From assembly GCF_001677475.2 (NCBI RefSeq), contig NZ_CP015229.1: a stretch of DNA of 64,000 nucleotides; one strand, 5' to 3'. Source of the stretch: Escherichia coli. Its GTDB lineage: Bacteria; Pseudomonadota; Gammaproteobacteria; Enterobacterales; Enterobacteriaceae. The position numbers were made by a program. Below are positions 49,801 to 52,800 of this stretch, one piece after another (position 1 is the stretch's first letter; each line of letters begins with the position of its first letter).

Positions 49801-52800
49801 TATTGTAAGTGTGATTCTTAATTATCATAATAAACATTAAGTTAACCATATCCATACAAAATACAATGGTTTATGTTCTTCAAAATAAATAAACAAAATC
49901 ATTCATAAATTTACACATCACTTAAATTCGCCTGTTTTCATACTTTTTTCTTTATTTTTTAAGCAACTGGAAGTTAATCCACTGCAATCTATTGTTATAT
50001 TGAATCAAATCAATGAAAATAGATGTTGTCACATCAGTGATATTTTATTTTTGTATGATATTTAATGTAATTGACTGATAGCCACATCACTTCGTGTGTG
50101 GTTATCTTTTTATCTATTGGGCTAATTTTGACCGATTGAGGTTTCCTATAGGTATTCATTCAAATATATCTCAGTTAGGAGTACTACTATTGTGAGTAAA
50201 CGTCGTTATCTTACCGGTAAAGAAGTTCAGGCCATGATGCAGGCGGTTTGTTACGGGGCAACGGGAGCCAGAGATTATTGTCTTATTCTGTTGGCATATC
50301 GGCATGGGATGCGTATTAGTGAACTGCTTGATCTGCATTATCAGGATCTTGACCTTAATGAAGGTCGAATAAATATTCGCCGACTGAAGAACGGATTTTC
50401 TACCGTTCACCCGTTACGTTTTGATGAGCGTGAAGCCGTGGAACGCTGGACCCAGGAACGTGCTAACTGGAAAGGCGCTGACCGGACCGACGCTATATTT
50501 ATTTCTCGCCGCGGGAGTCGGCTTTCTCGCCAGCAGGCCTATCGCATTATTCGCGATGCCGGTATTGAAGCTGGAACCGTAACGCAGACTCATCCTCATA
50601 TGTTAAGGCATGCTTGTGGTTATGAACTGGCGGAGCGTGGTGCAGATACCCGTTTAATACAGGATTATCTCGGGCATCGAAATATTCGCCATACTGTGCG
50701 TTATACCGCCAGTAATGCTGCTCGTTTTGCCGGATTATGGGAAAGAAATAATCTCATAAACGAAAAATTAAAAAGAGAAGAGGTTTGATTTAACTTATTG
50801 ATAATAAAGTTAAAAAGCAAATAAATACAAGACAATTGGGGCCAAACTGTCCATATCATAAATAAGTTACGTATTTTTTCTCAAGCATAAAAATATTAAA
50901 AAACGACAAAAAGCATCTAACTGTTTGATATGTAAATTATTTCTCTTGTAAATTAATTTCACATCACCTCCGCTATATGTAAAGCTAACGTTTCTGTGGC
51001 TCGACGCCTCTTCCTCATTCTTCTCTCCAAAAGCCACCTCATGCAATATAAAAATCTATAAATAAAGATAACAATAGAATATTAAGCCAACAAATAAACT
51101 GAAAAAGTTTGTGCGCGATGCTTTCCTCTATAAGTCAAAATGGCCCCAAATGTTTCATCTTTTGGGGGAAAACTGTGCAGTGTTGGCAGTCAAACTCGTT
51201 GACAAAACAAAGTGTACAGAACGACTGCCCATGTCGATTTAGAAATAGTTTTTTTTAAAGGAAAGCAGCATGAAAATTAAAACTCTGGCAATCGTTGTTC
51301 TGTCGGCTCTGTCCCTCAGTTCTACAGCGGCTCTGGCCGCTGCCACGACGGTAAATGGTGGGACCGTTCACTTTAAAGGAGAAGTTGTTAACGCCGCTTG
51401 CGCAGTTGATGCAGGCTCTGTTGATCAAACCGTTCAGTTAGGACAGGTTCGTACCGCATCGCTGGCACAGGACGGAGCAACCAGTTCTGCTGTCGGTTTT
51501 AACATTCAGCTGAATGATTGCGATACCAATGTTGCATCAAAAGCCGCTGTTGCCTTTTTAGGTACGGCGATTGATGCGACTCATACCAACGTTCTGGCTC
51601 TGCAGAGTTCTGCTGCAGGTAGTGCAACAAAAGTTGGTGTGCAGATCCTGGACAGAACGGGTGCTGCGCTGGCGCTGGACGGTGCGACATTTAGTGCACA
51701 AACAACCCTGAATAACGGTACCAACACCATTCCGTTCCAGGCGCGTTATTATGCAATCGGCGAGGCAACCCCTGGCGCAGCTAATGCGGATGCGACCTTC
51801 AAGGTTCAGTATCAATAACCTACCCAGGTTCAGGGACGTCATTACGGGCAGGGATGCCCACCCTTGTGCGATAAAAATAACGATGAAAAGGAAAAGATTA
51901 TTTCTGTTAGCGTCGTTGCTGCCAATGTTTGCTCTGGCCGGAAATAAATGGAATACCACGCTGCCCGGCGGAAATATGCAATTTCAGGGCGTCATTATTG
52001 CGGAAACTTGCCGGATTGAAGCCGGTGATAAACAAATGACGGTCAATATGGGGCAAATCAGCAGTAACCGGTTTCATGCGGTAGGGGAAGATAGCGCACC
52101 GGTACCTTTTGTTATTCATTTACGGGAATGTAGCACGGTGGTGAGTGAACGTGTGGGTGTGGCGTTTCACGGTGTCGCGGATGGTAAAAATCCGGATGTG
52201 CTTTCCGTGGGAGAGGGGCCAGGGATAGCCACTAATATTGGCGTAGCGTTGTTTGATGATGAAGGAAACCTCGTACCGATTAATCGTCCTCCAGCAAACT
52301 GGAAACGGCTTTACTCAGGCTCTACTTCGCTACATTTCATCGCCAAATATCGTGCTACCGGGCGTCGGGTTACTGGCGGCATCGCCAATGCCCAGGCCTG
52401 GTTCTCTTTAACCTATCAGTAATTGTTCAGCAGATAATGTGATAACAGGAACAGGACAGTGAGTAATAAAAACGTCAATGTAAGGAAATCGCAGGAAATA
52501 ACATTCTGCTTGCTGGCAGGTATCCTGATGTTCATGGCAATGATGGTTGCCGGACGCGCTGAAGCGGGAGTGGCCTTAGGTGCGACTCGCGTAATTTATC
52601 CGGCAGGGCAAAAACAAGTGCAACTTGCCGTGACAAATAATGATGAAAATAGCACCTATTTAATTCAATCATGGGTAGAAAATGCCGATGGTGTAAAGGA
52701 TGGTCGTTTTATCGTGACGCCACCTCTGTTTGCGATGAAGGGAAAAAAAGAGAATACCTTGCGTATTCTTGATGCAACAAATAACCAATTGCCACAGGAT

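What the first reader, a model, noticed from the sequence alone, without database searches (positions are those of the whole stretch)
50836..51149. fimS switch captured in apparent phase-OFF orientation
The 9-bp inverted repeats are intact (ttggggcca and tggccccaa, 314 bp apart). The best sigma70-like promoter inside the element (TTGAGA-N18-TATGATA) is on the minus strand beside the fimE-proximal repeat and points toward fimE, not fimA. In this sequence the fimA promoter is therefore inverted and type 1 fimbriae would be OFF.
Basis: partly seen in the sequence, partly recalled or inferred. Interest (0 to 1): 0.45.

Follow-up and report, generated by a model that had tools for sequence, protein, structure and literature searches.

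The report
Ordinary fimS switch, phase OFF
This is the well-known invertible promoter switch for E. coli type 1 fimbriae, assembled in its OFF orientation, which is also the orientation found in about 94% of complete E. coli genome assemblies, so the reading is correct but ordinary.

Summary
The observation and the interpretation both hold. TTGGGGCCA (50836-50844) and its reverse complement (51141-51149) are the only two copies in the window. They bound a 314-bp element between fimE and fimA that matches K-12 MG1655 fimS at 308 of 314 positions.

The only strong sigma-70-like site (TTGAGA-18-TATGAT) is on the minus strand beside the fimE-proximal repeat. Three independent anchors call this phase OFF:
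- An in-silico run of the published OL20/OL4 + BstUI assay gives 539+189 bp (published OFF 539+187; flipping gives 293+435, published ON 293+433).
- The window is collinear with the UTI89 reference, which the literature states is OFF, and with MG1655.

OFF is the default in assemblies: 4459 of 4722 complete E. coli genomes carrying the locus are collinear with the window and 250 are flipped.

FimB, FimE, both repeats, two IHF consensus sites and fimAICDFGH are intact, so the switch looks functional rather than locked. A close relative whose switch differs by one base is assembled ON.

An assembly shows only the majority orientation of the sequenced culture. This is already known biology and of low interest. 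The minor extra is four lineage-specific SNPs in fimS, one of which destroys the HinfI site used in a common orientation assay.

The parts
49112..49714 (+). fimB, a tyrosine-type DNA invertase of 200 aa that switches in both directions
   Evidence: It is an intact ORF. It hits Pfam PF00589 and NCBIfam NF007370 over its full length at 458 bits. It has 0 aa differences from FimB WP_000790583.1 of E. coli D7.
50192..50788 (+). fimE, a tyrosine-type DNA invertase of 198 aa that is biased ON-to-OFF
   Evidence: It is an intact ORF. It hits PF00589 and NF007371 over its full length at 452 bits. It has 0 aa differences from WP_000044711.1. The ON-to-OFF bias is taken from PMC2647292.
50791..50803 (-). 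IHF consensus site outside the switch, next to the left repeat (IHF-1)
   Evidence: TATCAATAAGTTA matches WATCAANNNNTTR. PMC9993118 places IHF-1 adjacent to IRL.
50836..50844 (+). IRL, the fimE-proximal 9-bp inverted repeat TTGGGGCCA
50836..51149 (.). fimS invertible element, 314 bp, in the phase-OFF orientation
   Evidence: It matches K-12 MG1655 at 308 of 314 positions in the same orientation. The in-silico BstUI assay gives 539+189 bp, the OFF pattern. The OFF-specific probe primers lie 135 bp apart. It is collinear with the UTI89 reference, stated to be OFF.
50855..50884 (-). PfimA: -35 TTGAGA (50884-50879), 18-nt spacer, -10 TATGAT (50860-50855). It points towards fimE and away from fimA.
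   Evidence: Found by the consensus scan. This stretch is identical to K-12. The literature places PfimA with its -10, -35 and start site inside fimS (PMC2647292) and at the end opposite the Fis site and right boundary in phase OFF (PMC9993118). A start site near 50848 on the minus strand is my inference from spacing only.
50918..50930 (-). IHF consensus site inside the switch (IHF-2)
   Evidence: TATCAAACAGTTA matches WATCAANNNNTTR. PMC9993118 places IHF-2 within fimS.
50999..51058 (+). C-rich, G-poor tract on the fimE-sense strand. It looks like a Rho utilisation site and is a candidate part of the Rho-dependent terminator of fimE, which acts only in phase OFF.
   Evidence: The C/G ratio is 4.2-5.3 in 60-nt windows. 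The existence of the terminator and its dependence on orientation come from PMC2647292 and PMC9993118. Its exact position here is inferred, not shown.
51114..51117 (.). Unique BstUI site (CGCG) used in the standard orientation assay. It lies near the fimA-proximal repeat in this orientation.
51141..51149 (+). IRR, the fimA-proximal 9-bp inverted repeat TGGCCCCAA
51270..51818 (+). fimA, the type 1 fimbrial major subunit (182 aa), with no promoter facing it in this orientation
   Evidence: It is an ORF and hits NCBIfam NF011741 FimA at 180 bits. No promoter-like site was found between IRR and fimA.
51883..57865 (+). fimI, fimC, fimD, fimF, fimG and fimH, all intact open reading frames
   Evidence: The ORF lists agree with the annotated order and lengths in E. 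coli D7. FimC has 0 aa differences and FimD has 11.

Best explanation
The region is the canonical fimS phase-variation switch of type 1 fimbriae, assembled in the OFF orientation. The 314-bp element carries the fimA promoter at one end. In this sequence that end abuts the fimE-proximal repeat, so the promoter fires away from fimAICDFGH and the operon has no promoter. In this orientation fimE transcripts read into the C-rich strand of fimS, where the known Rho-dependent terminator shortens and destabilises them. FimE therefore stays low, and return to ON depends on the slow, unbiased FimB reaction at the two 9-bp repeats, assisted by IHF, Lrp and Fis. Shown here: the anatomy, the orientation, the intact recombinase and fimbrial genes, and the fact that both orientations occur in related genomes. 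Taken from the literature or inferred: promoter activity, termination and switching rates. The orientation reflects the majority of DNA molecules in the sequenced culture and is the usual one for E. coli assemblies.
For: - The repeats and the 314-bp span are confirmed.
- The element lies between fimE and fimA, with fimB upstream.
- It is 308/314 identical to K-12 fimS and collinear with it. The first 109 positions, which hold the promoter, are identical.
- TTGAGA-18-TATGAT is on the minus strand next to IRL.
- In-silico OL20/OL4 PCR plus BstUI gives 539+189 bp, against the published OFF pattern of 539+187. The flipped sequence gives 293+435, against the published ON pattern of 293+433. Controls behave as expected: MG1655 gives 540+188 and the flipped genome 13E0780 gives 293+434.
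- The UTI89 reference, stated to be OFF, differs from the window at 12 positions as-is and 215 when flipped.
- Of the complete genomes, 4459 are collinear with the window and 250 with the flipped version.
- IHF consensus sites sit at the published places.
- FimB and FimE proteins are unchanged.
- The close relative L007 carries this switch, differing by one base, in the ON orientation.
- The mechanism is taken from PMC2647292 and PMC9993118.
Against: - Nothing contradicts the OFF call.
- No reads are available, so the ON:OFF ratio in the source culture is unknown.
- The exact allele of this window (A at 51132) was seen only in OFF or broken contigs, about 20 assemblies. That is expected by chance at a 94% OFF background.
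- I could not read the primary paper that mapped the fimA start site (Olsen and Klemm 1994). The hexamer assignment therefore rests on the scan, on identity to K-12, and on secondary literature that places the promoter inside fimS at the end opposite the Fis and BstUI sites.
Confidence: 0.95

Rival explanations
1. The switch is locked OFF. Lineage-specific changes in or beside fimS, or loss of a recombinase, stop inversion, as with the fimS deletion of EHEC O157:H7. On this reading the OFF state is a fixed trait and not a phase.
For: Four SNPs in fimS are absent from every complete E. coli genome examined: 51008 C, 51033 G, 51113 G and 51132 A. The SNP at 51132 lies 9 bp inside the fimA-proximal repeat, near where the recombinases bind. 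The exact allele was seen only in OFF or broken contigs.
Against: The element is full length at 314 bp, with both repeats perfect and no deletion. FimB and FimE are identical in protein sequence to common E. coli alleles, and both IHF consensus sites are intact. L007 shares three of the four SNPs and is assembled ON. Three assemblies with the exact allele break precisely at the left repeat (L008 type), which is what mixed orientations in the reads would cause. About 20 OFF observations are unremarkable when 94% of assemblies are OFF.
Confidence: 0.04
2. The orientation is really ON, because the functional fimA promoter is a different site that faces fimA in this sequence.
For: A weaker plus-strand consensus match, TTGATA-18-TAAATT (9 of 12), lies at 50925-50954 and faces fimA.
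Against: The number of consensus sites in the region is no higher than in shuffles. Three anchors tied to experiments all call this orientation OFF: the BstUI pattern, the phase-OFF probe geometry, and collinearity with the UTI89 reference stated to be OFF.
Confidence: 0.01

Closest known systems
fimS of E. coli K-12 (MG1655 reference, NC_000913.3 4542682-4542995)
   Same: It is also a 314-bp element with the same 9-bp repeats, the same position between fimE and fimA, and the same orientation. 308 of 314 bases are identical, and the promoter end and IHF sites are identical.
   Different: There are six substitutions in the promoter-distal two thirds, and two small differences in the fimS-fimA spacer: TTGACA in place of TTTACA, and a longer T run. 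No functional difference is shown.
fimS of uropathogenic E. coli UTI89, whose reference genome is stated to be phase OFF
   Same: It is collinear with the window, with 12 mismatches in 314 bp and the promoter on the minus strand beside the left repeat.
   Different: The flanking fimA allele differs. UPEC strains also carry extra recombinases elsewhere in the genome (FimX, IpuA) that can act on fimS. I did not look for these, because they would lie outside this window.
Locked-OFF fimS of EHEC O157:H7
   Same: It has the same locus and the same OFF orientation.
   Different: The EHEC switch is locked by a regulatory mutation. From my own knowledge this is a 16-bp deletion in fimS. Here the element is full length with perfect repeats.
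Other promoter-inversion switches run by tyrosine recombinases (ipuS and hyxS in UPEC; invertible promoters of gut Bacteroides)
   Same: They share the logic of a promoter between short inverted repeats that is flipped by a neighbouring tyrosine recombinase.
   Different: They have different repeats, recombinases and target genes. The window element is fimS itself and not an analogue.

Membership tests
fimS type 1 fimbrial phase switch | Perfect 9-bp inverted repeats TTGGGGCCA / TGGCCCCAA bounding a 314-bp element | tested here: met
   The repeats are at 50836-50844 and 51141-51149 and are the only two copies in the window. The defining feature is stated in PMC2647292 and PMC9993118.
fimS type 1 fimbrial phase switch | Location immediately upstream of fimA and downstream of fimE, with fimB further upstream | tested here: met
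   The ORF map and NCBIfam and Pfam assignments show the same order as the annotated K-12, D7 and UTI89 loci.
fimS type 1 fimbrial phase switch | Sequence homology to the characterised K-12 element | tested here: met
   308 of 314 positions are identical.
fimS type 1 fimbrial phase switch | fimA promoter inside the element, at one end | tested here: met
   TTGAGA-18-TATGAT lies at 50884..50855 on the minus strand and is identical to K-12. Only sequence was tested. Promoter activity cannot be tested with these tools.
fimS type 1 fimbrial phase switch | IHF sites, one beside the left repeat and one inside the element | tested here: met
   Consensus matches lie at 50791-50803 and 50918-50930, where PMC9993118 places IHF-1 and IHF-2.
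fimS type 1 fimbrial phase switch | Lrp and Fis binding sites in the promoter-distal half | not tested
   I did not map them individually. The region is at least 98% identical to K-12 and carries the window-specific SNPs at 51033 and 51113.
fimS type 1 fimbrial phase switch | The element actually inverts, so both orientations are found | tested here: inconclusive
   Across the species the test is met, with 4459 genomes in one orientation and 250 in the other. A relative one base different is ON (L007). The exact allele of this window was seen only as OFF or at contig breaks. Reads would be needed.
fimS type 1 fimbrial phase switch | Rho-dependent terminator of fimE that is active only in OFF | not testable with these tools
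   A C-rich, G-poor tract on the fimE-sense strand at 50999-51058 is compatible with it. Its existence is taken from the literature.
Phase-OFF orientation of fimS | OL20/OL4 amplicon cut by BstUI into about 539 + 187 bp (ON gives 433 + 293) | tested here: met
   In silico the window gives 539+189 and the flipped sequence gives 293+435.
Phase-OFF orientation of fimS | The promoter-distal end, with the Fis site and BstUI site, adjoins the fimA-proximal repeat | tested here: met
   BSFORBIO (inside fimS) and BSREVBIO (in the fimA-side flank) are convergent and 135 bp apart, as published for phase-OFF template.
Phase-OFF orientation of fimS | Collinear with a reference that the literature states is OFF | tested here: met
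   Against UTI89 there are 12 mismatches as-is and 215 flipped.

The most novel reading that the evidence does not exclude
The sub-lineage-specific G-to-A change at 51132 lies 9 bp inside the fimA-proximal repeat, in the inner flank where FimB and FimE bind. It might alter the rate or directional bias of inversion, so that this lineage sits OFF more firmly than typical E. coli. Close relatives that keep G (L005, L007) are the ones found ON. All assemblies with A are OFF or broken at the switch.
Probability: 0.04. Interest if true: 0.3.

Novelty: already known. Interest (0 to 1): 0.07.

Why it matters
It matters little. The fim switch has been a textbook case of promoter inversion since 1985, and an OFF orientation in an assembly is the norm. 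The practical points are small:
- Annotators should not read the assembled orientation as a strain phenotype.
- The HinfI-based orientation assay would fail on this lineage, because its only site inside fimS is mutated. The BstUI and SnaBI sites remain.
- The source lineage is about 2% diverged from every complete RefSeq E. coli genome yet keeps the whole fim regulatory architecture, a modest sign of how conserved the switch is.

Tried and rejected
- An exact 43-mer of this fimS allele was scanned against 100,044 species-representative genomes to identify the source. It gave no match, so I did not name the organism beyond 'Escherichia coli-like'.
- A text search for the hexamers TTGAGA and TATGAT in fim papers found none. 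Hinde et al. 2005 (PMC1317003) is not held. I did not try to look up the primary paper mapping the start site (Olsen and Klemm 1994). The -10 and -35 assignment is therefore indirect.
- L005 (GCA_018428365.1) looked at first like a real duplication: two fimS copies with an inverted fimE between them. It has an N exactly at the junction (L005:2565), so I rejected it as a scaffolding artefact.
- I looked for a second promoter between the right repeat and fimA, where TTGACA at 51189-51194 replaces K-12's TTTACA. No -10 follows, and the scan reports nothing there.
- No intrinsic terminator-like hairpin was found in 50700-51300, which is consistent with termination there being Rho-dependent.
- Rfam found no RNA family in the fimB-fimH stretch at gathering thresholds.

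Full report
**What is in the sequence**

The window from 49.1 to 57.9 kb holds a complete type 1 fimbrial locus. It has the same order and gene lengths as the annotated loci of E. coli D7, K-12 MG1655 and UTI89.

| Gene | Coordinates |
|---|---|
| fimB | 49112-49714 |
| fimE | 50192-50788 |
| fimA | 51270-51818 |
| fimI, fimC, fimD, fimF, fimG, fimH | up to 57865 |

- FimB and FimE are tyrosine recombinases. Both hit PF00589, and they match NCBIfam NF007370 and NF007371 over their full lengths.
- Their proteins are identical to the common alleles WP_000790583.1 and WP_000044711.1.
- Between fimE and fimA, TTGGGGCCA occurs at 50836-50844 and its reverse complement at 51141-51149.
- These are the only two copies in 64 kb. 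There are 296 nt between them, and the span is 314 bp including both repeats.
- The element matches K-12 fimS at 308 of 314 positions.

**Which way round it is**

A consensus scan finds TTGAGA-18-TATGAT (10 of 12) on the minus strand at 50884..50855, immediately inside the fimE-proximal repeat and pointing at fimE. The scan is not above chance on its own (3 sites against 2.3 in shuffles). I therefore anchored the orientation to published experimental conventions in three ways.

1. **BstUI assay.** The Dorman laboratory assay amplifies the switch with OL20 and OL4 and cuts at the single BstUI site. Phase OFF gives 539+187 bp and phase ON gives 433+293 bp (PMC9993118).
   - Both primers match the window exactly. 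The amplicon is 728 bp and BstUI gives 539+189 bp.
   - Flipping the inner 296 bp gives 293+435 bp.
   - Controls behave as expected. MG1655 gives 540+188, and 13E0780, a genome assembled the other way, gives 293+434.
[quoted passage not shown] In the window these primers are convergent and exactly 135 bp apart, at 51034-51168.
3. **UTI89 reference.** The literature states that the UTI89 reference genome has fimS OFF (bioRxiv 10.1101/494401). UTI89 fimS differs from the window at 12 positions as-is and at 215 when flipped.

The window is also collinear with the MG1655 reference.

**How unusual it is**

It is not unusual.

- Of 4722 complete E. coli genomes that carry the locus, 4459 align in one piece with the window as it stands.
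- 250 align in one piece with the flipped version.
- That is about 94% OFF and 5% ON, with 13 fitting neither.

This fits the known bias. FimE drives ON-to-OFF and dominates over FimB (PMC2647292). [quoted passage not shown]

An assembly reports only the majority orientation of the DNA that was sequenced. It says nothing about whether the strain can fimbriate.

**Is the switch live or locked?**

Everything needed for inversion is present:

- both repeats are perfect and the element is full length;
- fimB and fimE are intact;
- IHF consensus sites sit at 50791-50803, beside the left repeat, and at 50918-50930, inside the switch, where the literature places IHF-1 and IHF-2.

Contigs encoding exactly this FimA allele were retrieved.

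| Locus | Assembly | Relation to the window |
|---|---|---|
| L006 | GCA_016118665.1 | 99.985% identical over 6.5 kb, identical fimS, OFF; 16 similar places not shown |
| L007 | GCA_037967675.1 | switch differs by one base and is cleanly ON |
| L008 type | three assemblies | contig starts right after the left repeat, as expected if reads held both orientations |

I rate a locked-OFF reading at about 4%.

**Mechanism**

Shown here are the anatomy, the orientation, the intact genes, and the occurrence of both orientations among relatives.

Taken from the literature:

- In OFF, PfimA is disconnected from fimAICDFGH.
- fimS also holds a Rho-dependent terminator that shortens and destabilises the fimE transcript only in OFF.
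- FimE acts ON-to-OFF.
- IHF, Lrp, Fis and H-NS shape the bias.

Inferred by me:

- The start site is near 50848 on the minus strand, 7 nt past the -10.
- The C-rich, G-poor tract at 50999-51058 on the fimE-sense strand (C/G 4-5) is the Rho loading region. It would be G-rich, and so unsuitable, after inversion.
- No hairpin terminator is predicted in the region.

**Lineage-specific details**

Four substitutions in fimS were not found in the complete E. coli genomes: 51008 C, 51033 G, 51113 G and 51132 A. None of the four complete genomes whose fimS I compared base by base carries any of them. No complete genome matches a 91-bp stretch spanning 51113 and 51132 exactly.

- The change at 51132 turns GAGTC into AAGTC and removes the HinfI site used in the HinfI orientation assay.
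- It lies 9 bp inside the fimA-proximal repeat.
- The relatives L005 and L007 keep G at this position.

I cannot tell whether this change affects recombinase binding. That is the only mildly novel reading left open, and I give it about 4%.

**Source**

- The best complete RefSeq E. coli genome is only 98.1% identical over 44-62 kb.
- The best is 97.5% over 20-38 kb.
- The differences are overwhelmingly at third codon positions, so this is natural divergence of an E. coli-like lineage that is poorly represented among complete genomes.
- A 43-mer of its fimS is absent from 100,044 species-representative genomes.

**Verdict**

This is already known biology in its commonest assembled state, and the interest is low.

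Noticed in passing
window 1-64000 (tested on 20000-38000 and 44000-62000): No complete RefSeq E. coli genome out of 5426 is more than 97.5-98.1% identical to the window, although gene order is conserved and the differences are mostly synonymous. The source appears to be an Escherichia coli-like lineage outside the well-sampled phylogroups. Near-identical draft assemblies exist, for example GCA_016118665.1.
   Followed up: partly
window 51132 (also 51008, 51033, 51113): These are lineage-specific SNPs inside fimS. The G-to-A change at 51132 destroys the only HinfI site in the switch, so the widely used HinfI orientation assay would not work on this strain. The BstUI site (51114) and the SnaBI site (50868) are retained.
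   Followed up: partly
window 40256-44618: tRNA-Leu(CAA), which is leuX and a classic island insertion site, lies at 40256-40340. From my own knowledge this tRNA has been linked to fimB translation. It is followed by a small islet. That islet holds a 682-aa ORF (41018-43066) with no Pfam or NCBIfam family and only a marginal PADLOC hit. It also holds a phosphorothioated-DNA-binding HNH restriction endonuclease (43689-44618, minus strand; NF045808). This may be a small defence islet with an uncharacterised partner protein.
   Followed up: partly
L005 (GCA_018428365.1) 1-2900; L008 (GCA_031341795.3) position 1: Draft assemblies of close relatives are disturbed at the switch. L005 shows two fimS copies with an inverted fimE between them, but it has an N at the junction (L005:2565), so this is a scaffolding artefact. 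Three assemblies of the L008 type start their contig immediately after the left repeat. Both patterns are what mixed fimS orientations in the reads would produce.
   Followed up: yes
window 16289-16404 and 34048-34242: An Rfam Mg riboswitch (RF01056, 126 bits) lies upstream of an 898-aa ORF at 16498-19194, which fits the mgtA leader. A full-length match to Yersinia sRNA Ysr276 (RF02850, 185 bits) lies on the plus strand, opposite the pepA-like ORF at 33289-34800.
   Followed up: no
window 51189-51194 and 51250-51258: The fimS-fimA spacer reads TTGACA where K-12 has TTTACA; the other genomes aligned also have TTGACA. The window alone has a T run longer by one base and T in place of G just before the fimA ribosome-binding region. 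No matching -10 follows the TTGACA, so there is no evidence of a switch-independent fimA promoter.
   Followed up: partly
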